Shown here: positions 1 to 25,889 of the stretch, piece by piece
Numbering within the stretch: the stretch's first letter is position 1
Layout: the number at the start of each line of letters is the position of its first letter
Source: the human T2T-CHM13v2.0 reference genome, Homo sapiens
DNA length: 64,000 nucleotides
Direction of reading: 5' to 3'
Assembly (NCBI GenBank): GCA_009914755.4
Contig: CP068257.2
Coordinates: 11,264,001-11,328,000, forward strand
Program-made: the position numbers and the translations under genes
Notes under the pieces: model-generated
What the model saw: the letters and a program-made list of their open reading frames with translations, nothing else
Told to the model about the DNA's origin: nothing
The model's database searches: none

Positions 1-1867
1 ATGCTTCTGTCTATTTTTTATGGGAAGATATTTCCTTTTTCACCGTAGGCGTCAAGGCGATCGAAATGTCCACTTCCACAAACTACAAAAAGCGTGTTTC
101 AAACCTGCTCTATGAAAGGCCATGTTCATCTCTATGAGTTGAATGGAAATATCCGAAAGAAATTTCTGGGAATGCTGCTGTCTAGTGTTTATACGAATTC
201 CCGCTTCCAACGAAATCCTCAAAGCAATCCAAATATCCACTTGCAGAATCCACAAAAAGAGTGTTTCAAAACTGCTCTATCAATAGAAAGGTTCAACTCT
301 TTTAGTTGAGTACACACATCACGAACAAGTTTCTGAGAATGCTTCTGTCTGGCTTTTATTGGAAGACGTTTCCTTTTCACCAAAGGCATCAAAGCGCTCC
401 AAATGTCCACTTCCAGATTCTTCCAAAAGAGTGTTTCAAACGTGGTCGAAGTAAGGGAATGTTCAACTCTGTGACTTGAATGCAGATATCACCAAGTAGT
501 TTCTAATAGTGCTTCTGTCTACATTTTGATGATGATATTCCCGTTTCCAACGAAATCGTTAGAGCTATCCAAATATCCAGTTAGTTTCTACCAAAAGGGT
601 GTTTCCAAATTGCTGCATCAAAAGAAAGGTTCAACTCTGTTAGTTGAGGACACACATCACAAAGAAGTTTGTGAGAATGCTTCTGTCTAGATTTTGTATG
701 ACGATATTCCCTTTTCCAATGATATCGTTAAAGCAATCTAAATATCAATTTGCAGAATCCACAAAAATAGAGTTTCAAAGCTGCTCTGTAAAAAGAAAGG
801 TTCCACTCTGTTAGCTGAGTACACACATCACAAACTTGTTTCTGAGAATCCTTCTGTCTCGTTTTTATGGGAAGATATTTACTTTTTCACCGTAGGCATC
901 AAAGCGCTCCAAATGTCCACATCCAGATACTCCAGAACGAGTGTTTCAAACCTACTCTATGAAAGGGAATCTTCAACTCTATGAGTTGAATGCAGACATC
1001 AGAAAGAAATTTCTGAGAATGCTGCTGTCTACCTTTTATTTGAATTCCCGCTTCCAACGAAATCCTCCAAGCTATCCAAATATCCACTTGCATTTTCCAC
1101 AACAAGAGTGTTTCAAAACTGCTCTATCAATAGAAATGTTCAACTCCTTTGGCTGGGTACACACATCACAAACAAGTTTCTGAGAATGCTTCTGTCTAGT
1201 TTTTATGGGAAGACATTCCCTTTTTCACCAAAGGCATCAAAGCGCTCCAAATGTCCACTTCCAGACACTACAAAAAGAGTGTTTCAAACGTGCTCTAAGA
1301 AAGCGAATGTTCAACTCTGTGACTTGAATGCAGATATCACAAAGTAGTTTCTGAGAGTGCTTCTGTCTAGACTTTAGATGATGATATTCCCGTTTCCAAC
1401 GAAATCATTAGAGCTATCCAAATATCCACTTACAGTTTCTACAAAAAGAGTGTTTCCAAACTGCTGCATGAAAAGAGAGGTTCCACTCTGTTAGCTGAGT
1501 ACACACATCACAAACTTGTTTCTCAGAATCCGTCTGTCTCGTTTTTATGGGAAGATATTTACTTTTTCACCGTAGGCATCAAAGCGCTCCAAATGTCCAC
1601 ATCCAGATACTCCAGAAAGAGTGTTTCAAACCTGCTCTATGAAAGGGAATGTTCAACTCTATGAGTTGAATGCAGACATCAGAAAGAAATTTCTGAGAAT
1701 GCTGCTGTCTACCTTTTATTTGAATTCCCGCTTCCAACGAAATCCTCCAAGCTATCCAAATATCCACTTGCAGATTCCACAAAAAGAGTGTTTCAAAACT
1801 GCTCTCTATCAATGGCAAAGTTCAACTCTGTTAGTTGAGGACACATATCACCAACAAGTTTCTGAGA
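1..1867 (-). repeat. HOR copy 1 (1,867 bp; 3 bp shorter than the canonical unit)
   Basis: Aligns with 1868-3737. A 1-bp deletion near 520 (acattttgatgatg vs agattttagatgatg) and a 2-bp deletion near 590 (ccagttagtttcta vs ccagttacagtttcta). Confidence 0.8.
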
Positions 1868-1898
1868 ATGCTTCTGTCTATTTTTTATGGGAAGATAT

Positions 1899-1915
1899 TT
1901 CCTTTTTCACCGTAG
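1899..1915. promoter_or_regulatory. pJalpha-type motif (ttcctttttcaccgtag) in an A-type monomer (HOR monomer 1). It occupies the position where B-type monomers carry the CENP-B box.
   Basis: Matches TTCCTTTTYCACCRTAG. Variants of it (ttccttttcaccaaagg, tttacttttccaccgtag) sit at the same position in monomers 3, 6, 8 and 10. Confidence 0.5.
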
Positions 1916-2065
1916 GCGTCAAGGCGATCGAAATGTCCACTTCCACAAACTACAAAAAGAGTGTTTCAAACCTGCTCTATGAAAGGCCATGTTCATCTCT
2001 ATGAGTTGAATGGAAATATCCGAAAAAAATTTCTGGGAATGCTGCTGTCTAGTTTTTATATGAAT

Positions 2066-2082
2066 TCCCGCTTCCAACGAAA
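2066..2082 (-). promoter_or_regulatory. CENP-B box (reverse complement: tcccgcttccaacgaaa), HOR monomer 2
   Basis: Matches nCCCGnnTnnnnCGAAn, the reverse complement of the essential core nTTCGnnnnAnnCGGGn. Recurs in every canonical HOR copy at +1870. Confidence 0.7.
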
Positions 2083-2406
2083 TCCTCAAAGCAATCCAAA
2101 TATCCACTTGCAGAATCCACAAAAAGAGTGTTTCAAAACTGCTCTATCAATAGAAAGGTTCAACTCTTTTAGTTGAGTACACACATCACAAACAAGTTTC
2201 TGAGAATGCTTCTGTCTGGCTTTTATTGGAAGACGTTTCCTTTTCACCAAAGGCATCAAAGCGCTCCAAATGTCCACTTCCAGATTCTTCCAAAAGAGTG
2301 TTTCAAACGTGGTCGAAGTAAGGGAATGTTCTACTCTGTGACTTGAATGCAGATATCACCAAGTAGTTTCTAATAGTGCTTCTGTCTAGATTTTAGATGA
2401 TGATAT

Positions 2407-2423
2407 TCCCGTTTCCAACGAAA
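2407..2423 (-). promoter_or_regulatory. CENP-B box (tcccgtttccaacgaaa), HOR monomer 4
   Basis: Exact reverse complement of the canonical TTTCGTTGGAAACGGGA. Confidence 0.75.
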
Positions 2424-2915
2424 TCGTTAGAGCTATCCAAATATCCAGTTACAGTTTCTACCAAAAGGGTGTTTCCAAATTGCTGCATCAAAAGAAAGGT
2501 TCAACTCTGTTAGTTGAGGACACACATCACAAAGAAGTTTGTGAGAATGCTTCTGTCTAGATTTTGTATGACGATATTCCCTTTTCCAACGATATCGTTA
2601 AAGCAATCTAAATATCAATTTGCAGAATCCACAAAAATAGAGTTTCAAAGCTGCTCTGTAAAAAGAAAGGTTCCACTCTGTTAGCTGAGTACACACATCA
2701 CAAACTTGTTTCTGAGAATCCTTCTGTCTCGTTTTTATGGGAAGATATTTACTTTTCCACCGTAGGCATCAAAGCGCTCCAAATGTCCACATCCAGATAC
2801 TCCAGAAAGAGTGTTTCAAACCTGCTCTATGAAAGGGAATCTTCAACTCTATGAGTTGAATGCAGACATCAGAAAGAAATTTCTGAGAATGCTGCTGTCT
2901 ACCTTTTATTTGAAT

Positions 2916-2932
2916 TCCCGCTTCCAACGAAA
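2916..2932 (-). promoter_or_regulatory. CENP-B box (tcccgcttccaacgaaa), HOR monomer 7
   Basis: The essential core positions are intact. Confidence 0.7.
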
Positions 2933-3257
2933 TCCTCCAAGCTATCCAAATATCCACTTGCATTTTCCACAAAAAGAGTGTTTCAAAACTGCTCTATCAA
3001 TAGAAATGTTCAACTCCTTTGGCTGGGTACACACATCACAAACAAGTTTCTGAGAATGCTTCTGTCTAGTTTTTATGGGAAGACATTCCCTTTTTCACCA
3101 AAGGCATCAAAGCGCTCCAAATGTCCACTTCCAGACACTACAAAAAGAGTGTTTCAAACGTGCTCTAAGAAAGCGAATGTTCAACTCTGTGACTTGAATG
3201 CAGATATCACAAAGTAGTTTCTGAGAGGGCTTCTGTCTAGATTTTAGATGATGATAT

Positions 3258-3274
3258 TCCCGTTTCCAACGAAA
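3258..3274 (-). promoter_or_regulatory. CENP-B box (tcccgtttccaacgaaa), HOR monomer 9
   Basis: Exact reverse complement of the canonical box. Confidence 0.75.
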
Positions 3275-3595
3275 TCATTAGAGCTATACAAATATCCACT
3301 TACTGTTTCTACAAAAAGAGTGTTTCCAAACTGCTGCATCAAAAGAGAGGTTCCACTCTGTTAGCTGAGTACACACATCACAAACTTGTTTCTCAGAATC
3401 CTTCTGTCTCGTTTTTATGGGAAGATATTTACTTTTTCACCGTAGGCATCAAAGCGCTCCAAATGTCCACATCCAGATACTCCAGAAAGAGTGTTTCAAA
3501 CCTGCTCTATGAAAGGGAATCTTCAACTCTATGAGTTGAATGCAGACATCAGAAAGAAATTTCTGAGAATGCTGCTGTCTACCTTTTATTTGAAT

Positions 3596-3612
3596 TCCCG
3601 CTTCCAACGAAA
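3596..3612 (-). promoter_or_regulatory. CENP-B box (tcccgcttccaacgaaa), HOR monomer 11
   Basis: The essential core is intact. Box spacing within the HOR is 341/509/342/338/340 bp, i.e. every other monomer apart from one 3-monomer gap. Confidence 0.7.
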
Positions 3613-3737
3613 TCCTCCAAGCTATCCAAATATCCACTTGCAGATTCCACAAAAAGAGTGTTTCAAAACTGCTCTCTATCAATGGCAAAGTTCAACTCTG
3701 TTAGTTGAGGACACATATCACCAACAAGTTTCTGAGA

Positions 3738-5607
3738 ATGCTTCTGTCTATTTTTTATGGGAAGATATTTCCTTTTTCACCGTAGGCGTCAAGGCGATCG
3801 AAATGTCCACTTCCACAAACTACAAAAAGAGTGTTTCAAACCTGCTCTATGAAAGGCCATGTTCATCTCTATGAGTTGAATGGAAATATCCGAAAAAAAT
3901 TTCTGGGAATGCTGCTGTCTAGTTTTTATATGAATTCCCGCTTCCAACGAAATCCTCAAAGCAATCCAAATATCCACTTGCAGAATCCACAAAAAGAGTG
4001 TTTCAAAACTGCTCTATCAATAGAAAGGTTCAACTCTTTTAGTTGAGTACACACATCACGAACAAGTTTCTGAGAATGCTTCTGTCTGGCTTTTATTGGA
4101 AGACGTTTCCTTTTCACCAAAGGCATCAAAGCGCTCCAAATGTCCACTTCCAGATTCTTCCAAAAGAGTGTTTCAAACGTGCTCGAAGTAAGGGAATGTT
4201 CTACTCTGTGACTTGAATGCAGATATCACCAAGTAGTTTCTAATAGTGCTTCTGTCTAGATTTTAGATGATGATATTCCCGTTTCCAACGAAATCGTTAG
4301 AGCTATCCAAATATCCAGTTACAGTTTCTACCAAAAGGGTGTTTCCAAATTGCTGCATCAAAAGAAAGGTTCAACTCTGTTAGTTGAGGACACACATCAC
4401 AAAGAAGTTTGTGAGAATGCTTCTGTCTAGATTTTGTATGACGATATTCCCTTTTCCAACGATATCGTTAAAGCAATCTAAATATCAATTTGCAGAATCC
4501 ACAAAAATAGAGTTTCAAAGCTGCTCTGTAAAAAGAAAGGTTCCACTCTGTTAGCTGAGTACACACATCACAAACTTGTTTCTGAGAATCCTTCTGTCTC
4601 GTTTTTATGGGAAGATATTTACTTTTCCACCGTAGGCATCAAAGCGCTCCAAATGTCCACATCCAGATACTCCAGAACGAGTGTTTCAAACCTGCTCTAT
4701 GAAAGGGAATCTTCAACTCTATGAGTTGAATGCAGACATCAGAAAGAAATTTCTGAGAATGCTGCTGTCTACCTTTTATTTGAATTCCCGCTTCCAACGA
4801 AATCCTCCAAGCTATCCAAATATCCACTTGCATTTTCCACAAAAAGAGTGTTTCAAAACTGCTCTATCAATAGAAATGTTCAACTCCTTTGGCTGGGTAC
4901 ACACATCACAAACAAGTTTCTGAGAATGCTTCTGTCTAGTTTTTATGGGAAGACGTTCCCTTTTTCACCAAAGGCATCAAAGCGCTCCAAATGTCCACTT
5001 CCAGACACTACAAAAAGAGTGTTTCCAACGTGCTCTAAGAAAGCGAATGTTCAACTCTGTGACTTGAATGCAGATATCACAAAGTAGTTTCTGAGAGGGC
5101 TTCTGTCTAGATTTTAGATGATGATATTCCCGTTTCCAACGAAATCATTAGAGCTATCCAAATATCCACTTACAGTTTCTACAAAAAGAGTGTTTCCAAA
5201 CTGCTGCATCAAAAGAGAGGTTCCACTCTGTTAGCTGAGTACACACATCACAAACTTGTTTCTCAGAATCCTTCTGTCTCGTTTTTATGGGAAGATATTT
5301 ACTTTTTCACCGTAGGCATCAAAGCGCTCCAAATGTCCACATCCAGATACTCCAGAAAGAGTGTTTCAAACCTGCTCTATGAAAGGGAATCTTCAACTCT
5401 ATGAGTTGAATGCAGACATCAGAAAGAAATTTCTGAGAATGCTGCTGTCTACCTTTTATTTGAATTCCCGCTTCCAACGAAATCCTCCAAGCTATCCAAA
5501 TATCCACTTGCAGATTCCACAAAAAGAGTGTTTCAAAACTGCTCTCTATCAATGGCAAAGTTCAACTCTGTTAGTTGAGGACACATATCACCAACAAGTT
5601 TCTGAGA
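3738..5607 (-). repeat. HOR copy 3 (1,870 bp), near-identical to copy 2
   Basis: The ORF set is identical to copy 2 apart from single substitutions. Confidence 0.8.
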
Positions 5608-7477
5608 ATGCTTCTGTCTATTTTTTATGGGAAGATATTTCCTTTATCACCGTAGGCGTCAAGGCGATCGAAATGTCCACTTCCACAAACTACAAAAAGA
5701 GTGTTTCAAACCTGCTCTATGAAAGGCCATGTTCATCTCTATGAGTTGAATGGAAATATCCGAAAGAAATTTCTGGGAATGCTGCTGTCTAGTGTTTATA
5801 CGAATTCCCGCTTCCAACGAAATCCTCAAAGCAATCCAAATATCCACTTGCAGAATCCACAAAAAGAGTGTTTCAAAACCGCTCTATCAATAGAAAGGTT
5901 CAACTCTTTTAGTTGAGTACACACATCACGAACAAGTTTCTGAGAATGCTTCTGTCTGGCTTTTATTGGAAGACGTTTCCTTTTCACCAAAGGCATCAAA
6001 GCGCTCCAAATGTCCACTTCCAGATTCTTCCAAAAGAGTGTTTCAAACGTGCTCGAAGTAAGGGAATGTTCATCTCTGTGACTTGAATGCAGATATCACC
6101 AAGTAGTTTCTAATAGTGCTTCTGTCTAGATTTTAGATGATGATATTCCCGTTTCCAACGAAATCGTTAGATCTATCCAAATATCCAGTTACAGTTTCTA
6201 CCAAAAGGGTGTTTCCAAATTGCTGCATCAAAAGAAAGGTTCAACTCTGTTAGTTGAGGACACACATCACAAAGAAGTTTGTGAGAATGCTTCTGTCTAG
6301 ATTTTGTATGATGATATTCCCTTTTCCAACGATATCGTTAAAGCAATCTAAATATCAATTTGCAGAATCCACAAAAATAGAGTTTCAAAGCTGCTCTGTA
6401 AAAAGAAAGGTTCCACTCTGTTAGCTGAGTACACACATCACAAACTTGTTTCTGAGAATCCTTCTGTCTCGTTTTTATGGGAAGATATTTACTTTTCCAC
6501 CGTAGGCATCAAAGCGCTCCAAATGTCCACATCCAGATACTCCAGAACGAGTGTTTCAAACCTGCTCTATGAAAGGGAATCTTCAACTCTATGAGTTGAA
6601 TGCAGACATCAGAAAGAAATTTCTGAGAATGCTGCTGTCTACCTTTTATTTGAATTCCCGCTTCCAACGAAATCCTCCAAGCTATCCAAATATCCACTTG
6701 CATTTTCCACAAAAAGAGTGTTTCAAAACTGCTCTATCAATAGAAATGTTCAACTCCTTTGGCTGGGTACACACATCACAAACAAGTTTCTGAGAATGCT
6801 TCTGTCTAGTTTTTATGGGAAGACGTTCCCTTTTTCACCAAAGGCATCAAAGCGCTCCAAATGTCCACTTCCAGACACTACAAAAAGAGTGTTTCCAACG
6901 TGCTCTAAGAAAGCGAATGTTCAACTCTGTGACTTGAATGCAGATATCACAAAGTAGTTTCTGAGAGGGCTTCTGTCTAGATTTTAGATGATGATATTCC
7001 CGTTTCCAACGAAATCATTAGAGCTATCCAAATATCCACTTACAGTTTCTACAAAAAGAGTGTTTCCAAACTGCTGCATCAAAAGAGAGGTTCCACTCTG
7101 TTAGCTGAGTACACACATCACAAACTTGTTTCTCAGAATCCTTCTGTCTCGTTTTTATGGGAAGATATTTACTTTTTCACCGTAGGCATCAAAGCGCTCC
7201 AAATGTCCACATCCAGATACTCCAGAAAGAGTGTTTCAAACCTGCTCTATGAAAGGGAATCTTCAACTCTATGAGTTGAATGCAGACATCAGAAAGAAAT
7301 TTCTGAGAATGCTGCTGTCTACCTTTTATTTGAATTCCCGCTTCCAACGAAATCCTCCAAGCTATCCAAATATCCACTTGCAGATTCCACAAAAAGAGTG
7401 TTTCAAAACTGCTCTCTATCAATGGCAAAGTTCAACTCTGTTAGTTGAGGACACATATCACCAACAAGTTTCTGAGA
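5608..7477 (-). repeat. HOR copy 4 (1,870 bp); shares private variants with copy 8
   Basis: Private variants tttcaaaaccgctc (5871), gaatgttcatctctgtg (6061), cgttagatctatcc (6171), gtatgatgatattccc (6301) and FITVGV recur only in copy 8, at +7,480. Confidence 0.8.
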
Positions 7478-9347
7478 ATGCTTCTGTCTATTTTTTATGG
7501 GAAGATATTTCCTTTTTCACCGTAGGCGTCAAGGCGATCGAAATGTCCACTTCCACAAACTACAAAAAGAGTGTTTCAAACCTGCTCTATGAAAGGCCAT
7601 GTTCATCTCTATGAGTTGAATGGAAATATCCGAAAGAAATTTCTGGGAATGCTGCTGTCTAGTGTTTATACGAATTTCCGCTTCCAACGAAATCCTCAAA
7701 GCAATCCAAATATCCACTTGCAGAATCCACAAAAAGAGTGTTTCAAAACTGCTCTATCAATAGAAAGGTTCAACTCTTTTAGTTGAGTACACACATCACG
7801 AACAAGTTTCTGAGAATGCTTCTGTCTGGCTTTTATTGGAAGACGTTTCCTTTTCACCAAAGGCATCAAAGCGCTCCAAATGTCCACTTCCAGATTCTTC
7901 CAAAAGAGTGTTTCAAACGTGCTCAAAGTAAGGGAATGTTCAACTCTGTGACTTGAATGCAGATATCACCAAGTAGTTTCTAATAGTGCTTCTGTCTACA
8001 TTTTAGATGATGATATTCCCGTTTCAAACGAAATCGTTAGAGCTATCCAAATATCCAGTTACAGTTTCTACCAAAAGGGTGTTTCCAAATTGCTGCATCA
8101 AAAGAAAGGTTCAACTCTGTTAGTTGAGGACACACATCACAAAGAAGTTTGTGAGAATGCTTCTGTCTAGATTTTGTATGACGATATTCCCTTTTCCAAC
8201 GATATCGTTAAAGCAATCTAAATATCAATTTGCAGAATCCACAAAAATAGAGTTTCAAAGCTGCTCTGTAAAAAGAAAGGTTCCACTCTGTTAGCTGAGT
8301 ACACACATCACAAACTTGTTTCTCAGAATCCTTCTGTCTCGTTTTTATGGGAAGATATTTACTTTTCCACCGTAGGCATCAAAGCGCTCCAAATGTCCAC
8401 ATCCAGATACTCCAGAAAGAGTGTTTCAAACCTGCTCTATGAAAGGGAATGTTCAACTCTATGAGTTGAATGCAGACATCAGAAAGAAATTTCTGAGAAT
8501 GCTGCTGTCTACCTTTTATTTGAATTCCCGCTTCCAACGAAATCCTCCAAGCTATCCAAATATCCACTTGCATTTTCCACAAAAAGAGTGTTTCAAAACT
8601 GCTCTATCAATAGAAATGTTCAACTCCTTTAGCTGGGTACACACATCACAAACAAGTTTCTGAGAATGCTTCTGTCTAGTTTTTATGGGAAGACGTTCCC
8701 TTTTTCACCAAAGGCATCAAAGCGCTCCAAATGTCCACTTCAAGACACTACAAAAAGAGTGTTTCCAACGTGCTCTAAGAAAGCGAATGTTCAACTCTGT
8801 GACTTGAATGCAGATATCACAAAGTAGTTTCTGAGAGGGCTTCTGTCTAGATTTTAGATGATGATATTCCCGTTTCCAACGAAATCATTAGAGCTATCCA
8901 AATATCCACTTACAGTTTCTACAAAAAGAGTGTTTCCAAACTGCTGCATCAAAAGAGAGGTTCCACTCTGTTAGCTGAGTACACACATCACAAACTTGTT
9001 TCTCAGAATCCTTCTGTCTCGTTTTTATGGGAAGATATTTACTTTTTCACCGTAGGCATCAAAGCGCTCCAAATGTCCACATCCAGATACTCCAGAAAGA
9101 GTGTTTCAAACCTGCTCTATGAAAGGGAATCTTCAACTCTATGAGTTGAATGCAGACATCAGAAAGAAATTTCTGAGAATGCTGCTGTCTACCTTTTATT
9201 TGAATTCCCGCTTCCAACGAAATCCTCCAAGCTATCCAAATATCCACTTGCAGATTCCACAAAAAGAGTGTTTCAAAACTGCTCTCTATCAATGGCAAAG
9301 TTCAACTCTGTTAGTTGAGGACACATATCACCAACAAGTTTCTGAGA
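7478..9347 (-). repeat. HOR copy 5 (1,870 bp); same variant type as copies 9 and 11
   Basis: EAEIRINT, NFRFQ, GNVQLYEL, LIELNIPF, caagacacta and the 76-aa ORF form MSTFETLFWKNLEVDIW. Confidence 0.8.
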
Positions 9348-16827: not shown

Positions 16828-18695
16828 ATGCTTCTGTCTATTTTTTATGGGAAGATATTTCCTTTTTCACCGTAGGCGTCAAGGCGATCGAAATGTCCAC
16901 TTCCACAAACTACAAAAAGAGTGTTTCAAACCTGCTCTATGAAAGGCCATGTTCATCTCTATGAGTTGAATGGAAATATCCGAAAGAAATTTCTGGGAAT
17001 GCTGCTGTCTAGTGTTTATACGAATTCCCACTTCCAACGAAATCCTCAAAGCAATCCAAATATCCACTTGCAGAATCCACAAAAAGAGTGTTTCAAAACT
17101 GCTCTATCAATAGAAAGGTTCAACTCTTTTAGTTGAGTACACACATCACGAACAAGTTTCTGAGAATGCTTCTGTCTGGCTTTTATTGGAAGACGTTTCC
17201 TTTTCACCAAAGGCATCAAAGCGCTCCAAATGTCCACTTCCAGATTCTTCCAAAAGAGTGTTTCAAACGTGCTCAAAGTAAGGGAATGTTCAACTCTGTG
17301 ACTTGAATGCAGATATCACCAAGTAGTTTCTAATAGTGCTTCTGTCTAGATTTTAGATGATGATATTCCCGTTTCCAACGAAATCGTTAGAGCTATCCAA
17401 ATATCCACTTACAGTTTCTACAAAAAGAGTGTTTCCAAACTGCTGCATCAAAAGAAAGGTTCAACTCTGTTAGTTGAGGACACACATCACAAAGAAGTTT
17501 GTGAGAATGCTTCTGTCTAGATTTTGTATGACGATATTCCCTTTTCCAACGATATCGTTAAAGCAATCTAAATATCAATTTGCAGAATCCACAAAAATAG
17601 TTTCAAAGCTGCTCTGTAAAAAGAAAGGTTCCACTCTGTTAGCTGAGTACACACATCACAAACTTGTTTCTCAGAATCCTTCTGTCTCGTTTTTATGGGA
17701 AGATATTTACTTTTCCACCGTAGGCATCAAAGCGCTCCAAATGTCCACATCCAGATACTCCAGAACGAGTGTTTCAAACCTGCTCTATGAAAGGGAATCT
17801 TCAACTCTATGAGTTGAATGCAGACATCAGAAAGAAATTTCTGAGAATGCTGCTGTCTACCTTTTATTTGAATTCCCGCTTCCAACGAAATCCTCCAAGC
17901 TATCCAAATATCCACTTGCATTTTCCACAAAAAGAGTGTTTCAAAACTGCTCTATCAATAGAAATGTTCAACTCCTTTGGCTGGGTACACACATCACAAA
18001 CAAGTTTCTGAGAATGCTTCTGTCTAGTTTTTATGGGAAGACGTTCCCTTTTTCACCAAAGGCATCAAAGCGCTCCAAATGTCCACTTCCAGACACTACA
18101 AAAAGAGTGTTTCCAACGTGCTCTAAGAAAGCGAATGTTCAACTCTGTGACTTGAATGCAGATATCACAAAGTAGTTTCTGAGAGGGCTTCTGTCTAGAT
18201 TTTAGATGATGATATTCCCGTTTCCAACGAAATCATTAGAGCTATCCAAATATCCACTTACAGTTTCTACAAAAAGAGTGTTTCCAAACTGCTGCATCAA
18301 AAGAGAGGTTCCACTCTGTTAGCTGAGTACACACATCACAAACTTGTTTCTCAGAATCCTTCTGTCTCGTTTTTATGGGAAGATATTTACTTTTTCACCG
18401 TAGGCATCAAAGCGCTCCAAATGTCCACATCCAGATACTCCAGAAAGAGTGTTTCAAACCTGCTCTATGAAAGGGAATCTTCAACTCTATGAGTTGAATG
18501 CAGACATCAGAAAGAAATTTCTGAGAATGCTGCTGTCTACCTTTTATTTGAATTCCCGCTTCCAACGAAATCCTCCAAGCTATCCAAATATCCACTTGCA
18601 GATTCCACAAAAAGAGTGTTTCAAAACTGCTCTCTATCAATGGCAAAGTTCAACTCTGTTAGTTGAGGACACATATCACCAACAAGTTTCTGAGA
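16828..18695 (-). repeat. HOR copy 10 (1,868 bp; 2-bp deletion near 17,600); copy-6 type
   Basis: acaaaaatagtttcaaagct vs canonical acaaaaatagagtttcaaagct; EVGIRINT / NSHFQ. Confidence 0.8.
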
Positions 18696-20565
18696 ATGCT
18701 TCTGTCTATTTTTTATGGGAAGATATTTCCTTTTTCACCGTAGGCGTCAAGGCGATCGAAATGTCCACTTCCACAAACTACAAAAAGAGTGTTTCAAACC
18801 TGCTCTATGAAAGGCCATGTTCATCTCTATGAGTTGAATGGAAATATCCGAAAGAAATTTCTGGGAATGCTGCTGTCTAGTGTTTATACGAATTTCCGCT
18901 TCCAACGAAATCCTCAAAGCAATCCAAATATCCACTTGCAGAATCCACAAAAAGAGTGTTTCAAAACTGCTCTATCAATAGAAAGGTTCAACTCTTTTAG
19001 TTGAGTACACACATCACGAACAAGTTTCTGAGAATGCTTCTGTCTGGCTTTTATTGGAAGACGTTTCCTTTTCACCAAAGGCATCAAAGCGCTCCAAATG
19101 TCCACTTCCAGATTCTTCCAAAAGAGTGTTTCAAACGTGCTCAAAGTAAGGGAATGTTCAACTCTGTGACTTGAATGCAGATATCACCAAGTAGTTTCTA
19201 ATAGTGCTTCTGTCTACATTTTAGATGATGATATTCCCGTTTCAAACGAAATCGTTAGAGCTATCCAAATATCCAGTTACAGTTTCTACCAAAAGGGTGT
19301 TTCCAAATTGCTGCATCAAAAGAAAGGTTCAACTCTGTTAGTTGAGGACACACATCACAAAGAAGTTTGTGAGAATGCTTCTGTCTAGATTTTGTATGAC
19401 GATATTCCCTTTTCCAACGATATCGTTAAAGCAATCTAAATATCAATTTGCAGAATCCACAAAAATAGAGTTTCAAAGCTGCTCTGTAAAAAGAAAGGTT
19501 CCACTCTGTTAGCTGAGTACACACATCACAAACTTGTTTCTCAGAATCCTTCTGTCTCGTTTTTATGGGAAGATATTTACTTTTCCACCGTAGGCATCAA
19601 AGCGCTCCAAATGTCCACATCCAGATACTCCAGAAAGAGTGTTTCAAACCTGCTCTATGAAAGGGAATCTTCAACTCTATGAGTTGAATGCAGACATCAG
19701 AAAGAAATTTCTGAGAATGCTGCTGTCTACCTTTTATTTGAATTCCCGCTTCCAACGAAATCCTCCAAGCTATCCAAATATCCACTTGCATTTTCCACAA
19801 AAAGAGTGTTTCAAAACTGCTCTATCAATAGAAATGTTCAACCCCTTTGGCTGGGTACACACATCACAAACAAGTTTCTGAGAATGCTTCTGTCTAGTTT
19901 TTATGGGAAGACGTTCCCTTTTTCACCAAAGGCATCAAAGCGCTCCAAATGTCCACTTCAAGACACTACAAAAAGAGTGTTTCCAACGTGCTCTAAGAAA
20001 GCGAATGTTCAACTCTGTGACTTGAATGCAGATATCACAAAGTAGTTTCTGAGAGGGCTTCTGTCTAGATTTTAGATGATGATATTCCCGTTTCCAACGA
20101 AATCATTAGAGCTATCCAAATATCCACTTACAGTTTCTACAAAAAGAGTGTTTCCAAACTGCTGCATCAAAAGAGAGGTTCCACTCTGTTAGCTGAGTAC
20201 ACACATCACAAACTTGTTTCTCAGAATCCTTCTGTCTCGTTTTTATGGGAAGATATTTACTTTTTCACCGTAGGCATCAAAGCGCTCCAAATGTCCACAT
20301 CCAGATACTCCAGAAAGAGTGTTTCAAACCTGCTCTATGAAAGGGAATCTTCAACTCTATGAGTTGAATGCAGACATCAGAAAGAAATTTCTGAGAATGC
20401 TGCTGTCTACCTTTTATTTGAATTCCCGCTTCCAACGAAATCCTCCAAGCTATCCAAATATCCACTTGCAGATTCCACAAAAAGAGTGTTTCAAAACTGC
20501 TCTCTATCAATGGCAAAGTTCAACTCTGTTAGTTGAGGACACATATCACCAACAAGTTTCTGAGA
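18696..20565 (-). repeat. HOR copy 11 (1,870 bp); copy-5/9 type in its 5' part
   Basis: 18747 and 18789 are identical to 15009 and 15051; the downstream part carries canonical LIELK. Confidence 0.8.
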
Positions 20566-22435
20566 ATGCTTCTGTCTATTTTTTATGGGAAGATATTTCC
20601 TTTTTCACCGTAGGCGTCAAGGCGATCGAAATGTCCACTTCCACAAACTACAAAAAGAGTGTTTCAAACCTGCTCTATGAAAGGCCATGTTCATCTCTAT
20701 GAGTTGAATGGAAATATCCGAAAGAAATTTCTGGGAATGCTGCTGTCTAGTGTTTATACGAATTCCCACTTCCAACGAAATCCTCAAAGCAATCCAAATA
20801 TCCACTTGCAGAATCCACAAAAAGAGTGTTTCAAAACTGCTCTATCAATAGAAAGGTTCAACTCTTTTAGTTGAGTACACACATCACGAACAAGTTTCTG
20901 AGAATGCTTCTGTCTGGCTTTTATTGGAAGACGTTTCCTTTTCACCAAAGGCATCAAAGCGCTCCAAATGTCCACTTCCAGATTCTTCCAAAAGAGTGTT
21001 TCAAACGTGCTCAAAGTAAGGGAATGTTCAACTCTGTGACTTGAATGCAGATATCACCAAGTAGTTTCTAATAGTGCTTCTGTCTAGATTTTAGATGATG
21101 ATATTCCCGTTTCCAACGAAATCGTTAGAGCTATCCAAATATCCACTTACAGTTTCTACAAAAAGAGTGTTTCCAAACTGCTGCATCAAAAGAAAGGTTC
21201 AACTCTGTTAGTTGAGGACACACATCACAAAGAAGTTTGTGAGAATGCTTCTGTCTAGATTTTGTATGACGATATTCCCTTTTCCAACGATATCGTTAAA
21301 GCAATCTAAATATCAATTTGCAGAATCCACAAAAATAGAGTTTCAAAGCTGCTCTGTAAAAAGAAAGGTTCCACTCTGTTAGCTGAGTACACACATCACA
21401 AACTTGTTTCTGAGAATCCTTCTGTCTCGTTTTTATGGGAAGATATTTACTTTTCCACCGTAGGCATCAAAGCGCTCCAAATGTCCACATCCAGATACTC
21501 CAGAACGAGTGTTTCAAACCTGCTCTATGAAAGGGAATCTTCAACTCTATGAGTTGAATGCAGACATCAGAAAGAAATTTCTGAGAATGCTGCTGTCTAC
21601 CTTTTATTTGAATTCCCGCTTCCAACGAAATCCTCCAAGCTATCCAAATATCCACTTGCATTTTCCACAAAAAGAGTGTTTCAAAACTGCTCTATCAATA
21701 GAAATGTTCAACTCCTTTGGCTGGGTACACACATCACAAACAAGTTTCTGAGAATGCTTCTGTCTAGTTTTTATGGGAAGACGTTCGCTTTTTCACCAAA
21801 GGCATCAAAGCGCTCCAAATGTCCACTTCCAGACACTACAAAAAGAGTGTTTCCAACGTGCTCTAAGAAAGCGAATGTTCAACTCTGTGACTTGAATGCA
21901 GATATCACAAAGTAGTTTCTGAGAGGGCTTCTGTCTAGATTTTAGATGATGATATTCCCGTTTCCAACGAAATCATTAGAGCTATCCAAATATCCACTTA
22001 CAGTTTCTACAAAAAGAGTGTTTCCAAACTGCTGCATCAAAAGAGAGGTTCCACTCTGTTAGCTGAGTACACACATCACAAACTTGTTTCTCAGAATCCT
22101 TCTGTCTCGTTTTTATGGGAAGATATTTACTTTTTCACCGTAGGCATCAAAGCGCTCCAAATGTCCACATCCAGATACTCCAGAAAGAGTGTTTCAAACC
22201 TGCTCTATGAAAGGGAATCTTCAACTCTATGAGTTGAATGCAGACATCAGAAAGAAATTTCTGAGAATGCTGCTGTCTACCTTTTATTTGAATTCCCGCT
22301 TCCAACGAAATCCTCCAAGCTATCCAAATATCCACTTGCAGATTCCACAAAAAGAGTGTTTCAAAACTGCTCTCTATCAATGGCAAAGTTCAACTCTGTT
22401 ACTTGAGGACACATATCACCAACAGGTTTCTGAGA
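20566..22435 (-). repeat. HOR copy 12 (1,870 bp); copy-6/10 type
   Basis: 20617 and 20659 are identical to 16879 and 16921. Confidence 0.8.
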
Positions 22436-24305
22436 ATGCTTCTGTCTATTTTTTATGGGAAGATATTTCCTTTTTCACCGTAGGCGTCAAGGCGATCGAA
22501 ATGTCCACTTCCACAAACTACAAAAAGAGTGTTTCAAACCTGCTCTATGAAAGGCCATGTTCATCTCTATGAGTTGAATGGAAATATCCGAAAGAAATTT
22601 CTGGGAATGCTGCTGTCTAGTTTTTATACGAATTCCCGCTTCCAACGAAATCCTCAAAGCAATCCAAATATCCACTTGCAGAATCCACAAAAAGAGTGTT
22701 TCAAAACTGCTCTATCAATAGAAAGGTTCAACTCTTTTAGTTGAGTACACACATCACGAACAAGTTTCTCAGAATGCTTCCGTCTGGCTTTTATTGGAAG
22801 ACGTTTCCTTTTCACCAAAGGCATCAAAGCGCTCCAAATGTCCACTTCCAGATTCTTCCAAAAGAGTGTTTCAAACGTGCTCAAAGTAAGGGAATGTTCA
22901 ACTCTGTGACTTGAATGCAGATATCACCAAGTAGTTTCTAATAGTGTTTCTGTCTAGATTTTAGATGATGATATTCCCGTTTCCAACGAAATCGTTAGAG
23001 CTATCCAAATATCCACTTACAGTTTCTACAAAAAGGGTGTTTCCAAACTGCTGCATCAAAAGAAAGGTTCAACTCTGTTAGTTGAGGACACACATCACAA
23101 AGAAGTTTGTGAGAATGCTTCTGTCTAGATTTTGTATGACGATATTCCCTTTTCCAACGATATCGTTAAAGCAATCTAAATATCAATTTGCAGAATCCAC
23201 AAAAATAGAGTTTCAAAGCTGCTCTGTAAAAAGAAAGGTTCCACTCTGTTAGCTGAGTACACACATCACAAACTTGTTTCTGAGAATCCTTCTGTCTTGT
23301 TTTTATGGGAAGATATTTACTTTTTCACCGTAGGCATCAAAGGGCTCCAAATGTCCACATCCAGATACTCCAGAAAGAGTGTTTCAAACCTGCTCTATGA
23401 AAGGGAATCTTCAACTCTATGAGTTGAATGCAGACATCAGAAAGAAATTTCTGAGAATGCTGCTGTCTACCTTTTATGTGAATTCCCGCTTCCAATGAAA
23501 TCCTCCAAGCTATCCAAATATCCACCTGCATTTTCCACAAAAAGAGTGTTTCAAAACTGCTCTATCAATAGAAATGTTCAACTCCTTTGGCTGGGTACAC
23601 ACATCACAAACAAGTTTCTGAGAATGCTTCTGTCTAGTTTTTATGGGAAGACATTCCCTTTTTCACCAAAGGCATCAAAGCGCTCCAAATGTCCACTTCC
23701 AGACACTACAAAAAGAGTGTTTCCAACGTGCTCTAAGAAAGCGAATGATCAACTCTGTGACTTGAATGCAGATATCACAAAGTAGTTTCTGAGAGGGCTT
23801 CTGTCTAGATTTTAGACGATGATATTCCCGTTTCCAACGAAATCATTAGAGCTATCCAAATATCCACTTACAGTTTCTACAAAAAGAGTGTTTCCAAACT
23901 GCTGCATCAGAAGAGAGGTTCCACTCTGTTAGCTGAGTACACACATCACAAACTTGTTTCTCAGAATCCTTCTGTCTCGTTTTTATGGGAAGATATTTAC
24001 TTTTTCACCGTAGGCATCAAAGCGCTGCAAATGTCCACATCCAGATACTCCAGAAAGAGTGTTTCAAACCTGCTCTATGAAAGGGAATCTTCAACTCTAT
24101 GAGTTGAATGCAGACATCAGAAAGAAATTTCTGAGAATGCTGCTGTCTACCTTTTATTTGAATTCCCGCTTCCAACGAAATCCTCCAAGCTATCCAAATA
24201 TCCACTTGCTGATTCCACAGAAAGAGTGTTTCAAAACTGCTCTCTATCAATGGCAAAGTTCAACTCTGTTAGTTGAGGACACATATCACCAACAAGTTTC
24301 TGAGA
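22436..24305 (-). repeat. HOR copy 13 (1,870 bp)
   Basis: Register markers 22487, 22529, 22654, 23337 and 24017; SSFYTN / EAGIRIKT variant. Confidence 0.8.
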
Positions 24306-25889
24306 ATGCTTCTGTCTATTTTTTATGGGAAGATATTTCCTTTTTCACCGTAGGCGTCAAGGCGATCGAAATGTCCACTTCCACAAACTACAAAAAGAGT
24401 GTTTCAAACCTGCTCTATGAAAGGCCATGTTCATCTCTATGAGTTGAATGGAAATATCCGAAAGAAATTTCTGGGAATGCTGCTGTCTAGTTTTTATACG
24501 AATTCCCGCTTCCAACGAAATCCTCAAAACAATCCAAATATCCACTTGCAGAATCCACAAAAAGAGTGTTTCAAAACTGCTCTATCAATAGAAAGGTTCA
24601 ACACTTTTAGTTGAGTACACACATCACGAACAAGTTTCTGAGAATGCTTCTGTCTGGCTTTTATTGGAAGACGTTTCCTTTTCACCAAAGGCATCAAAGC
24701 GCTCCAAATGTCCACTTCCAGATTCTTCCAAAAGAGTGTTTCAAACGTGCTCAAAGTAAGGGAATGTTCAACTCTGTGACTTGAATGCAGATATCACCAA
24801 GTAGTTTCTAATAGTGCTTCTGTCTAGATTTTAGATGATGATATTCCCGTTTCCAACGAAATCGTTAGAGCTATCCAAATATCCACTTACAGTTTCTACC
24901 AAAAGGGTGTTTCCAAACTGCTGCATCAAAAGAAAGGTTCAACTCTGTTAGTTGAGGACACACATCACAAAGAAGTTTGTGAGAATGCTTCTGTCTAGAT
25001 TTTGTATGACGATATTCCCTTTTCCAACGATATCGTTAAAGCAATCTAAATATCAATTTGCAGAATCCACAAAAATAGAGTTTCAAACCTGCTCTGTAAA
25101 AAGAAAGGTTCCACTCTGTTAGCTGAGTACACACATCACAAACTTGTTTCTGAGAATCCTTCTGTCTCGTTTTTATGGGAAGATATTTACTTTTTCACCG
25201 TAGGCATCAAAGCGCTCCAAATGTCCACATCCAGATACCCCAGAAAGAGTGTTTCAAACCTGCTCTATGAAAGGGAATCTTCAACTCAATGAGTTGAATG
25301 CAGACATCAGAAAGAACTTTCTGAGAATGCTGCTGTCTACCTTTTATTTGAATTCCCGCTTCCAACGAAATCCTCCAAGCTATCCAAATATCCACTTGCA
25401 TTTTCCACAAAAAGAGTGTTTCAAAACTGCTCTATCAATAGAAATGTTCAACTCCTTTGGCTGGGTACACACATCACAAACAAGTTTCTGAGAATGCTTC
25501 TGTCTAGTTTTTATGGGAAGACATTCCCTTTTTCACCAAAGGCATCAAAGCGCTCCAAATGTCCACTTCCAGACACTACAAAAAGAGGGTTTCCAACGTG
25601 CTCTAAGAAAGCGAATGTTCAACTCTGTGACTTGAATGCAGATATCACAAAGTAGTTTCTGAGAGGGCTTCTGTCTGGATTTTAGATGATGATATTCCCG
25701 TTTCCAACGAAATCATTAGAGCTATCCAAATATCCACTTACAGTTTCTACAAAAAGAGTGTTTCCAAACTGCTGCATCAAAAGAGAGGTTCCACTCTGTT
25801 AGCTGAGTACACACATCACAAACTTGTTTCTGAGAATCCTTCTGTCTCGTTTTTATGGGAAGATATTTCCTTTTTCACCGTAGGCATCA
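24306..25889 (-). repeat. HOR copy 14, truncated at relative position ~+1584 by a monomer-m10/m3 hybrid junction
   Basis: Register holds through 25416 (+1110). At ~25,880-25,900, ...caccgtaggcatcaaagcgctcaaaatgtccacttccagattcttcc... joins an m10-type start to an m3-type body; the expected +1581 ORF is absent. Confidence 0.75.

What the first reader, a model, noticed from the sequence alone, without database searches (positions are those of the whole stretch)
1..25889. Live-type 11-monomer HOR array (1,870 bp x ~14) with 5 CENP-B boxes per unit
Between-copy identity is >99% over 25.9 kb, with a strict 1,870-bp register. Only two length variants occur: -3 bp in copy 1 and -2 bp in copy 10. Intact CENP-B boxes sit in monomers 2, 4, 7, 9 and 11 of every copy, as expected of the kinetochore-competent HOR of a chromosome. 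An 11-mer ~1.87-kb unit with B boxes in alternate monomers is compatible with known SF2-type 11-mer arrays such as D13Z1/D21Z1 (alpha21-I) or D8Z2. D8Z2 is further suggested by the 7- and 8-mer variants downstream, but I cannot assign the chromosome from the sequence alone.
Basis: partly seen in the sequence, partly recalled or inferred. Interest (0 to 1): 0.6.

Follow-up and report, generated by a model that had tools for sequence, protein, structure and literature searches.

The report
Human chromosome 13/21 centromere repeat array

Summary
Positions 1-24305 hold 13 head-to-tail copies of an 1,870-bp, 11-monomer alpha-satellite higher-order repeat (HOR). A 14th copy runs until a hybrid-monomer crossover at about 25.89 kb. 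Two claims are overstated. Only 62 of 69 expected CENP-B boxes keep the essential core. Copies 1 and 13 fall below 99% identity.

The HOR is alpha21-I (D13Z1/D21Z1, suprachromosomal family 2):
- EcoRI cuts the unit into 5-mer + 4-mer + 2-mer, as published.
- There are five active boxes plus the published inactive box motif.
- The published Cen21 and p11-4 cloning primers match exactly or nearly so.

D8Z2 is excluded. Its printed monomers are at most 86.5% identical, and its ddPCR primers fail.

The window is an array edge:
- rearranged HOR variants to about 41.3 kb;
- then decayed dimers;
- then pure A-type monomeric alphoid to 64 kb.

Chromosome 21 is weakly favoured over 13. Kinetochore occupancy cannot be tested from sequence. 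Already known; low interest.

The parts
1..24305 (-). 13 complete canonical copies of the 1,870-bp, 11-monomer alpha21-I (D13Z1/D21Z1) HOR. Copy starts: 1, 1868, 3738, 5608, 7478, 9348, 11218, 13088, 14958, 16828, 18696, 20566, 22436. The conventional alphoid orientation (CENP-B box read as TTCG...CGGG) is the minus strand.
   Evidence: lag-1870 identity 0.922; pairwise copy identity 98.1-100%; lengths 1867/1870/1868.
24306..25888 (-). Partial 14th copy. It is canonical through monomers A-I plus the 5' part of J.
25882..25908 (.). Crossover interval inside hybrid monomer 25832-26002 (5' part J/F-like, 3' part C-like). This is where the strict 1870-bp register ends.
   Evidence: mismatch profiles against monomers C, J, H and F.
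2066..2082 (-). Representative active CENP-B box (monomer B, copy 2). The other four boxes of this copy are at 2407-2423 (D), 2916-2932 (G), 3258-3274 (I) and 3596-3612 (K).
   Evidence: In total 62 of 69 sites in 1-25889 keep the core NTTCGNNNNANNCGGGN.
2578..2594 (-). Constitutively inactive box-like motif TCCCTTTTCCAACGATA in monomer E. It is identical to the inactive 'monomer 10' motif of the published alpha21-I 11-mer.
   Evidence: It is present in 56 sites of 50 independent contigs.
3738..18695 (.). Recent duplication of a 4-unit block. Copies 3-6 (3738-11217) and copies 7-10 (11218-18695) differ by 3 mismatches and one 2-bp indel (99.93%). Copies 9-10 are duplicated again as copies 11-12 (18696-22435, 99.79%).
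   Evidence: Adjacent non-duplicate blocks are 99.33% identical.
7676..7692 (-). Example of a broken CENP-B box (TTCCG) in monomer B. The same variant occurs at 15156 and 18894. The TCCCA variant occurs at 9546, 17026 and 20764. A broken monomer-G box (CGAA to TGAA) is at 23484.
   Evidence: The two monomer-B variants are absent from 69 independent monomer-B sites; the monomer-G variant was not screened.
25889..41273 (-). Zone of rearranged HOR variants built from the same monomers, with hybrid monomers (J/C, I/D, H/C). Read between K monomers, the units are a 19-mer, a 16-mer, 7+6 (a 13-mer, twice), an 11-mer, an 11-mer, a 10-mer and a 5-mer. The last good HOR monomer is H at 41104-41273 (97%).
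   Evidence: The junction zone 26.7-28.2 kb recurs at 98-99% in independent contigs L030, L059, L067 and L073.
30088..34477 (-). Two tandem copies of a 2,195-bp, 13-monomer variant HOR, 98.2% identical to each other.
34480..38219 (-). Two more canonical 11-mer units embedded in the variant zone.
41274..48000 (-). Transition layer of divergent alphoid monomers, 75-94% identical to HOR monomers. A/B alternation is roughly kept and the CENP-B boxes are decaying (9 core boxes in 39 monomers). It includes a decayed H-D-E fragment at 41781-42292.
48001..64000 (-). Monomeric or divergent alphoid with no HOR. A and b types alternate irregularly to about 56 kb, and 60.3-64 kb is purely A-type. It holds 6 core boxes in 92 monomers, and CpG observed/expected is 0.23 against 0.50 in the HOR.

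Best explanation
The finding is the terminal part of a human alpha21-I array (D13Z1/D21Z1; in T2T nomenclature, by my recollection, S2C13/21H1L). This is the suprachromosomal-family-2 higher-order repeat that forms the centromeres of chromosomes 13 and 21.

How it works, from established knowledge of this family:
- The B-type monomers carry the 17-bp CENP-B box in about every other monomer, five per 11-mer.
- CENP-B bound there, together with the homogeneous alphoid array, supports CENP-A chromatin assembly and kinetochore formation.
- The array is kept homogeneous, and expands or contracts, by unequal crossing-over and conversion between misaligned repeats.

What the sequence shows directly:
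- the 11-mer anatomy and the box pattern;
- footprints of unequal exchange, namely hybrid monomers at variant junctions, a 4-unit block duplicated at 99.93% and a 13-mer variant duplicated in tandem;
- the classic layered edge, running from homogeneous HOR to rearranged HOR variants, then decayed dimers, then CpG-depleted A-type monomeric alphoid.

What is inferred:
- That this stretch is or is not under the kinetochore is unknown.
- The chromosome is 21 rather than 13 with a probability of about 0.65.
For: 1. Both Cen21 ChIP/qPCR primers match exactly, at 36 and 9 sites, with 0 expected by chance. They are named as chromosome 21 alphoid primers in PMC4694756 and PMC7679138.

2. Every feature of the cloned alpha21-I 11-mer (p11-4) described by Ohzeki et al. 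2002 (PMC2173396) is met:
- EcoRI sites at 195, 1045 and 1725 of the consensus give 850 + 680 + 340 bp, i.e. 5-mer + 4-mer + 2-mer.
- There are five active boxes on about every other monomer.
- The sixth, inactive motif TCCCTTTTCCAACGATA is identical.
- Primers T1, T3 and SA4, and the wild-type forms of H1 and H2, match exactly. T2 matches exactly at 4 sites. SA3 matches with 1 mismatch.

3. D13Z1/D21Z1 is listed as the SF2 'live' HOR of chromosomes 13 and 21 (PMC4496801). The monomers here fall into two alternating classes, with one D-E breach of the alternation.

4. Independent human-derived contigs carry the same unit:
- About 40 of the 76 fetched contigs match it at 98-99.8% over their full length.
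- In three contigs (L020, L027, L028) two monomer-A markers lie exactly 1870 bp apart.

5. Published chromosome 21 centromeres are 77-95% 11-mer, carry rarer variant HORs and have monomeric alphoid at the edges (PMC13288774). The window's layout matches this.

6. Evidence for chromosome 21 over chromosome 13:
- The most diagnostic site found (monomer G position 137) is G in 12 of the 13 canonical copies (16 of 17 motif-bearing sites window-wide). This is the allele of the chromosome-21-derived clone (primer SA3).
- The alternative A allele occurs on a non-overlapping set of contigs that have different array-edge junctions.
Against: - No human reference assembly or HOR library (HumAS-HMMER, T2T annotation) was available. 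Identity rests on about 200 bases of published primer sequence, the restriction map and the box pattern, not on a full-length alignment to the reference HOR.
- The chromosome 13 versus 21 call rests on one strongly diagnostic site. It also depends on my recollection that the chromosome-13-specific primer ends in the other base, which no held paper confirms.
- The contigs used for the allele analysis are short-read assemblies of contaminant human DNA and may be collapsed or chimeric.
- Seven of the 69 boxes are broken and the stretch lies next to the array boundary. Local kinetochore function is therefore not implied.
Confidence: 0.92

Rival explanations
1. It is the chromosome 8 array D8Z2, an SF2 11-mer with abundant 4-, 7- and 8-mer derivative HORs.
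For: D8Z2 has the same monomer number (11), a similar unit length (1,881 bp) and derivative HORs of other lengths (PMC8099727). The window has variant HORs downstream of the canonical copies.
Against: - The 11 D8Z2 monomers printed in PMC8099727 are at most 86.5% identical to any window monomer. The best cyclic register gives a mean of 82%.
- The D8Z2 ddPCR primers need at least 3 and at least 4 mismatches, no better than primers for unrelated arrays.
- The box pattern differs. In D8Z2 the core box is in monomers B, D, F, H and I.
- The unit is 1870 bp, not 1881 bp.
Confidence: 0.01
2. It is the same HOR family but on chromosome 13 (D13Z1) rather than chromosome 21 (D21Z1).
For: - The two arrays share one HOR and are hard to tell apart (PMC13288774; PMC5741061).
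- All family-level evidence applies equally to chromosome 13.
- One canonical copy (site 8631) carries the alternative allele.
Against: - The diagnostic monomer-G site is the p11-4 (chromosome 21 clone) allele in 12 of 13 canonical copies, and the linked E75C variant is absent from them.
- Contigs with the other allele have different array-edge junctions from those of the G-allele contigs.
- The assignment of that other allele to chromosome 13 rests on my memory only.
Confidence: 0.32
3. It is an inactive, displaced copy of the alpha21-I HOR lying outside the functional array, for example a pericentromeric pseudo-array or a copy on another chromosome.
For: - D13Z1/D21Z1 sequences are detectable at low level on other chromosomes such as Y (PMC5741061).
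- The window lies at an array boundary and contains dead boxes and rearranged units.
Against: - Canonical copies are 98.1-100% identical, with a 99.93% block duplication. This is typical of an actively homogenising main array.
- Independent contigs match at up to 99.8%.
- The gradient from HOR through variants and dimers to monomeric alphoid is what the edge of a main array looks like (PMC13288774).
Confidence: 0.05
4. It is an artificial or cloned array (such as the 32-copy synthetic alpha21-I BAC used for artificial chromosomes) or an assembly artefact that collapsed or duplicated repeats.
For: Copies 3 and 7 are 100% identical. Synthetic 11-mer concatemers exist (PMC2173396).
Against: - There are 62 variable columns among the 13 copies, in structured haplotypes.
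- Natural hybrid-monomer junctions recur in independent samples.
- There is no vector sequence and no engineered site.
- There are 23 kb of divergent natural alphoid flank.
Confidence: 0.01

Closest known systems
alpha21-I 11-mer (clone p11-4; D21Z1/D13Z1; SF2 live HOR of chromosomes 13 and 21)
   Same: - 11 monomers in about 1.87 kb.
- EcoRI fragments of 5-mer + 4-mer + 2-mer.
- Five active CENP-B boxes on about every other monomer.
- One inactive motif, TCCCTTTTCCAACGATA.
- Exact or near-exact matches to the nine published primers derived from it.
   Different: - There are a few local single-base differences. The Cen21 reverse primer matches exactly in only 3 of 13 canonical copies, and with 1 mismatch in the rest.
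- Primer T2 matches exactly in 1 canonical copy.
- Six monomer-B boxes and one monomer-G box are mutated here.
D8Z2 (chromosome 8 SF2 11-mer HOR)
   Same: It belongs to the same suprachromosomal family, has the same monomer count and a similar unit length, and has derivative HORs created through hybrid monomers.
   Different: - Monomers are only 81-86.5% identical.
- The unit is 1,881 bp.
- The box positions differ.
- Its ddPCR primers do not match.
Layered centromere organisation (homogeneous HOR core flanked by divergent and then monomeric alphoid), as described for chromosomes 8 and 21 in T2T-era papers
   Same: The window shows the expected order: HOR, then variant HORs, then decayed dimers, then A-type monomeric alphoid. 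CENP-B box density and CpG content fall along it (PMC8099727; PMC13288774).
   Different: No retrotransposon or other satellite appears within the 23 kb of flank covered. The suprachromosomal family classes of the flank layers were not formally assigned.

Membership tests
Alpha satellite | Tandem monomers of about 171 bp, AT-rich, in one orientation | tested here: met
   TRF finds a 171-bp period over 1-64000. There are 374 monomers of 158-174 bp. GC is 0.35-0.39.
Suprachromosomal family 2 (D1/D2 dimeric) | Regular alternation of a B-type (CENP-B box) and an A-type monomer class | tested here: met
   The identity matrix splits the monomers into {A,C,F,H,J} and {B,D,E,G,I,K}, with a single D-E breach. 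The A/B site pattern agrees.
Suprachromosomal family 2 (D1/D2 dimeric) | Monomers classify as D1/D2 rather than J1/J2 (SF1) against class consensus sequences or HMMs | not testable with these tools
   No SF class consensus or HumAS-HMMER model was available. The SF2 label is taken from the literature for D13Z1/D21Z1 (PMC4496801).
alpha21-I / D13Z1-D21Z1 HOR | 11-monomer unit of about 1.87 kb that EcoRI cuts into 4-mer, 2-mer and 5-mer fragments | tested here: met
   The consensus unit is 1870 bp, and EcoRI gives fragments of 850, 680 and 340 bp (compared with PMC2173396).
alpha21-I / D13Z1-D21Z1 HOR | Five active CENP-B boxes plus one inactive motif carrying two substitutions (TCCCTTTTCCAACGATA) | tested here: met
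   The consensus has boxes in B, D, G, I and K, and monomer E carries the exact inactive motif. Seven individual boxes are mutated in this stretch.
alpha21-I / D13Z1-D21Z1 HOR | Sequence identity to the cloned or reference HOR | tested here: inconclusive
   About 200 bases covered by published primers match at 99% or better, and independent human contigs match at 98-99.8%. No full-length reference unit was available for alignment.
D21Z1 specifically (chromosome 21, not 13) | Chromosome-specific single-base variants or a unique flank | tested here: inconclusive
   Monomer-G site 137 carries the p11-4 allele in 12 of 13 canonical copies (16 of 17 motif-bearing sites window-wide), and the two alleles are mutually exclusive on independent contigs. 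The assignment of the other allele to chromosome 13 comes from memory only. The flank could not be mapped.
D8Z2 | Monomers at least about 95% identical to the 11 D8Z2 monomers; 1,881-bp unit; D8Z2 ddPCR primers match | tested here: not met
   Maximum identity is 86.5%. The unit is 1870 bp. The primers need at least 3 and at least 4 mismatches.
Active ('live') centromere chromatin at this position | CENP-A occupancy and a CpG hypomethylation dip (CDR) over the stretch | not testable with these tools
   This needs CENP-A ChIP or CUT&RUN and methylation calls from the same genome. Only family-level evidence from the literature is available.

The most novel reading that the evidence does not exclude
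The most novel reading not excluded is that the window captures an uncatalogued local haplotype of the chromosome 21 (or 13) array edge. In it, a recently duplicated 2-4-unit block is spreading HOR copies whose monomer-B CENP-B box is dead. Those two variants were absent from all 69 independent monomer-B sites examined. This would be a small natural example of box-loss variants being amplified by unequal exchange at the periphery of a live array. The two HOR sequence types, each with its own edge junctions, could also give simple markers that separate chromosomes 13 and 21.
Probability: 0.3. Interest if true: 0.2.

Novelty: already known. Interest (0 to 1): 0.08.

Why it matters
The finding correctly flags a functional centromere repeat. 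That repeat has been cloned and characterised since the 1990s, and it has now been fully assembled in many genomes. Its value here is practical:
- It fixes the identity as alpha21-I/D13Z1-D21Z1, not D8Z2.
- It shows that the window spans the boundary of the array.
- It documents the ordinary signatures of satellite turnover: hybrid monomers, block duplications, and decay of boxes and CpG away from the core.

No open question about centromere biology becomes newly testable from this window.

Tried and rejected
1. D8Z2 identity was rejected by direct monomer comparison and by primer tests.

2. I looked for published primers that separate D13Z1 from D21Z1:
- The LNA assay of PMC5741061 is in supplements that are not held.
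- PMC8730464 and PMC6677800 hold none.
- The chromosome-13-type PRINS primer I remember is in no held paper.
The 13-versus-21 call therefore remains weak.

3. I looked for alpha21-II sequences to classify the flank. Only descriptions were found, no usable sequence.

4. The T2T centromere paper could not be opened under the id I tried.

5. I searched the flank for a secondary HOR. No monomer pair exceeds 93% identity and no ungapped lag exceeds about 0.53, so there is none.

6. I tried to corroborate the window's own flank in independent contigs. None of the 76 fetched loci matches 41.2-64 kb above 88%. This is expected, because the marker lies at least 2.7 kb inside the array.

7. A synthetic or assembly-artefact origin was rejected on the structured variation and on the variant junctions that recur in other samples.

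8. Protein, RNA-family and structure tools were not used, because the whole window is non-coding satellite.

Full report

Yes, in its main points. Tandem Repeats Finder reports a 171-bp period across the entire 64-kb window, and base composition is uniform and AT-rich.

Within 1-25889 the ungapped self-identity is 0.922 at a lag of 1870 bp and 0.858 at 3740 bp. It is about 0.5 at other multiples of 171 bp.

Cutting at a conserved monomer-boundary motif gives 374 monomers. The reference unit has 11 monomers of 171, 167, 170, 171, 171, 171, 167, 171, 171, 171 and 169 bp, total 1870 bp. I label them A to K.

The -3 bp in copy 1 and the -2 bp in copy 10 are exactly as reported.

Pairwise identity among the 13 complete copies is 98.1-100%. 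Copies 2-12 lie at 98.9-100%, and copies 1 and 13 are somewhat lower.

**2. The CENP-B boxes**

All boxes lie on the minus strand. Monomer E always carries a box-like motif with two substitutions, TCCCTTTTCCAACGATA.

The claim that the boxes are intact in every copy is not correct. Of the 69 expected sites in 1-25889:
- 59 match the full 17-bp consensus.
- 62 keep the essential core (NTTCGNNNNANNCGGGN; its definition is established knowledge and is referred to in PMC2173396).
- 7 are broken at essential bases.

The seven broken boxes are:
- monomer B in copies 5, 9 and 11 (TTCCG);
- monomer B in copies 6, 10 and 12 (TCCCA);
- monomer G in copy 13 (CGAA to TGAA).

These seven sites trace to only three mutational events, because the copies that carry them are recent duplicates of one another (see section 4).

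**3. What it is**

No human reference could be searched, so I tested the sequence against published descriptions.

The two primers used widely as 'Cen21' or 'chromosome 21 alphoid' primers match the window exactly, at 36 and 9 sites, with none expected by chance. They are GTCTACCTTTTATTTGAATTCCCG and AGGGAATGTCTTCCCATAAAAACT, as given in PMC4694756 and PMC7679138.

Ohzeki et al. 2002 (PMC2173396) describe the cloned alpha21-I 11-mer as follows:
- EcoRI cuts it into 4-mer, 2-mer and 5-mer fragments.
- It has five active CENP-B boxes on about every other monomer.
- It has one inactive motif ('monomer 10') that differs from an active box by two nucleotides.
- Several cloning primers are listed.

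The window's consensus unit meets every one of these:
- EcoRI sites at 195, 1045 and 1725 give 850, 680 and 340 bp, i.e. 5 + 4 + 2 monomers.
- The inactive motif is identical.
- Primers T1, T3 and SA4, and the wild-type versions of H1 and H2, match exactly. T2 matches exactly at four sites. SA3 matches with one mismatch.

If the published numbering runs along this strand, their monomers 1, 3, 5, 7 and 9 are my G, I, K, B and D, and their monomer 10 is my E.

D13Z1/D21Z1 is listed as the SF2 'live' HOR of chromosomes 13 and 21 (PMC4496801). This agrees with the two alternating monomer classes seen here.

The D8Z2 alternative fails every test:
- The eleven D8Z2 monomers printed in Logsdon et al. 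2021 (PMC8099727) are at most 86.5% identical to any monomer of this unit. The mean of the best matches is 84%, and the best in-register mean is 82%.
- The D8Z2 ddPCR primers need at least 3 and at least 4 mismatches. That is no better than primers for unrelated arrays.
- The D8Z2 unit is 1,881 bp.

Downstream variant HORs do not point to chromosome 8. Chromosome 21 arrays also carry variant HORs of many lengths, including 4-, 5-, 7-, 9-, 10- and 13-mers (PMC13288774).

**4. Surroundings: the window is an array edge**

After the break at about 25.89 kb, the same monomers continue to 41,273 but in rearranged units. Read between K monomers, these are a 19-mer, a 16-mer, a 7+6 unit (a 13-mer of 2,195 bp, present twice at 98.2%), two canonical 11-mers (34480-38219), a 10-mer and a 5-mer. 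Hybrid monomers (J/C, I/D, H/C) sit at the junctions.

From 41,274 to 64,000 there is no higher-order periodicity. No monomer pair exceeds 93% identity, the mean is about 79%, and no ungapped lag stands out.

The flank is graded:
- 41-48 kb has roughly alternating A and B types with decaying boxes.
- 48-56 kb has irregular A/b alternation.
- 60.3-64 kb is purely A-type.

Core-box density falls across the four zones (1-24.3, 24.3-41.3, 41.3-48 and 48-64 kb) from 2.39 to 2.24, 1.34 and 0.38 per kb. CpG observed/expected falls from 0.50 to 0.43, 0.39 and 0.23.

This is the layered organisation described for human centromeres, with a homogeneous HOR core and monomeric alphoid at the edges.

Within the canonical part, copies 3-6 and copies 7-10 differ by only three substitutions and one 2-bp indel in 7,480 bp (99.93%). 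Copies 9-10 recur as copies 11-12 (99.79%). Adjacent non-duplicate blocks are 99.33% identical. These are recent multi-unit duplications.

**5. Independent copies elsewhere**

A 28-mer specific to monomer A is invariant across the canonical copies. It occurs in 7 contigs of 'bacterial' genome assemblies and in 69 metagenome contigs. This must be human DNA contamination.

- About 40 of these contigs match the window's consensus unit at 98-99.8% over their whole length. In three contigs (L020, L027, L028) two markers lie exactly 1870 bp apart.
- Four contigs match the window's variant junction zone (26.7-28.2 kb) at 98-99%, but match the canonical unit at only 92-96%. That rearranged variant therefore recurs in other samples and is not an assembly error.
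- The box-killing variants of monomer B are absent from all 69 independent monomer-B sites. The inactive monomer-E motif is found at 56 sites in 50 contigs.

**6. Chromosome 13 or 21?**

The family-level evidence cannot separate the two chromosomes.

One site does split the independent contigs into two non-overlapping groups. At monomer G position 137, GGCTGGG occurs in 23 contigs and AGCTGGG in 7. The variant E75C is linked to the AGCTGGG group.

The two groups also carry different array-edge junctions. The window has the G allele in 12 of its 13 canonical copies (16 of 17 motif-bearing sites window-wide), and E75C is absent from the canonical copies.

The chromosome-21-derived clone p11-4 has this same G allele, as primer SA3 shows. 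I recall that the chromosome-13-specific PRINS/PCR primer ends in the other base, but no held paper confirms this. I therefore favour chromosome 21 at about 0.65, and I treat this as unresolved.

**7. Mechanism**

Shown directly by the sequence:
- the anatomy of the unit;
- the box pattern;
- the hybrid monomers;
- the block duplications;
- the graded flank.

Established for this family in the literature:
- Alpha21-I arrays with intact boxes assemble CENP-A chromatin and form artificial chromosomes. Arrays with mutated boxes do not (PMC2173396).
- D13Z1/D21Z1 recruits CENP-A and CENP-B in cells (PMC5741061).

Inferred:
- The array is homogenised and resized by unequal exchange.
- The flank layers are older, decayed generations of centromeric repeat.

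Not testable here is whether this particular stretch is under the kinetochore. It lies 17-41 kb from the array boundary. In published chromosome 21 centromeres the hypomethylated kinetochore region can be peripheral and can sit in heterogeneous HOR zones. Position alone therefore decides nothing.

**8. Verdict**

This is a correct sighting of a known object. The sequence is the alpha21-I (D13Z1/D21Z1) SF2 HOR at the edge of its array, probably on chromosome 21. Two details of the observation, box integrity in every copy and >99% identity throughout, are overstated. Novelty: already known. Interest: low.

Noticed in passing
window 3738-22435: There is a repeat above the HOR level. A 4-unit (7.48-kb) block, copies 3-6, is duplicated as copies 7-10 at 99.93%. 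Copies 9-10 are duplicated again as copies 11-12 at 99.79%. Adjacent non-duplicate blocks are 99.33% identical.
   Followed up: yes
window 7676, 15156, 18894 (TTCCG); 9546, 17026, 20764 (TCCCA); 23484 (TGAA): Seven CENP-B boxes are broken at essential bases. They trace to only three mutational events, two of which are CpG transitions, and they were spread by the block duplication. The two monomer-B variants are absent from 69 independent monomer-B sites in other samples; the monomer-G variant was not screened.
   Followed up: yes
window 30088-34477: A 13-monomer (2,195-bp) variant HOR is present as two tandem copies at 98.2% identity. Its monomers are more diverged from the canonical ones (86-98%) than those of the rest of the variant zone.
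   Followed up: partly
window 41274-64000: The array boundary lies at about 41.27 kb. The flank grades from decayed A/B dimers to pure A-type monomeric alphoid. CpG observed/expected drops from 0.50 to 0.23, and the magnitude of the GC skew falls after 40 kb. A decayed H-D-E fragment of the HOR sits at 41781-42292. The suprachromosomal family classes of the layers were not assigned.
   Followed up: partly
L001-L007 (genome contigs), e.g. BMTN01000069.1 Streptomyces kurssanovii, BNBB01000099.1 Streptosporangium violaceochromogenes, BMRF01000150.1 Actinomadura cremea, CABPVN010000053.1 Campylobacter concisus, NZ_CALIMQ010000125.1 Campylobacter MAG: Contigs deposited as bacterial genome sequence are human alpha21-I centromeric satellite, up to 99.5% identical to this HOR. 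This is human DNA contamination in public prokaryotic assemblies. Another 69 such contigs occur in metagenomes.
   Followed up: partly
L013, L019, L033, L054, L065, L069, L076 versus L072, L025 and 22 others: Two sequence types of the HOR never share a contig. They differ at monomer G position 137 (A versus G), and E75C is linked to the A type. The two types are joined to different array-edge sequences: L069 is a right edge, L019/L013/L006 are one kind of left edge, and L072/L025 are another. These may be the chromosome 13 and chromosome 21 arrays.
   Followed up: partly
window 1198-1221 and equivalent sites in each copy: The widely used Cen21 reverse qPCR primer (11-10R) matches exactly in only 3 of the 13 canonical copies. 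The other ten carry a G where the primer site has A, forming a CpG, which gives one mismatch near the primer's 5' end. This is relevant to quantitative use of the primer pair.
   Followed up: partly
window 43658-43815, 47231-47379, 48051-48208: There are truncated monomers of 149-158 bp in the divergent flank. TRF also reports a local 149-bp period at 47136-47422. These are small internal deletions of the kind expected in decaying alphoid.
   Followed up: no
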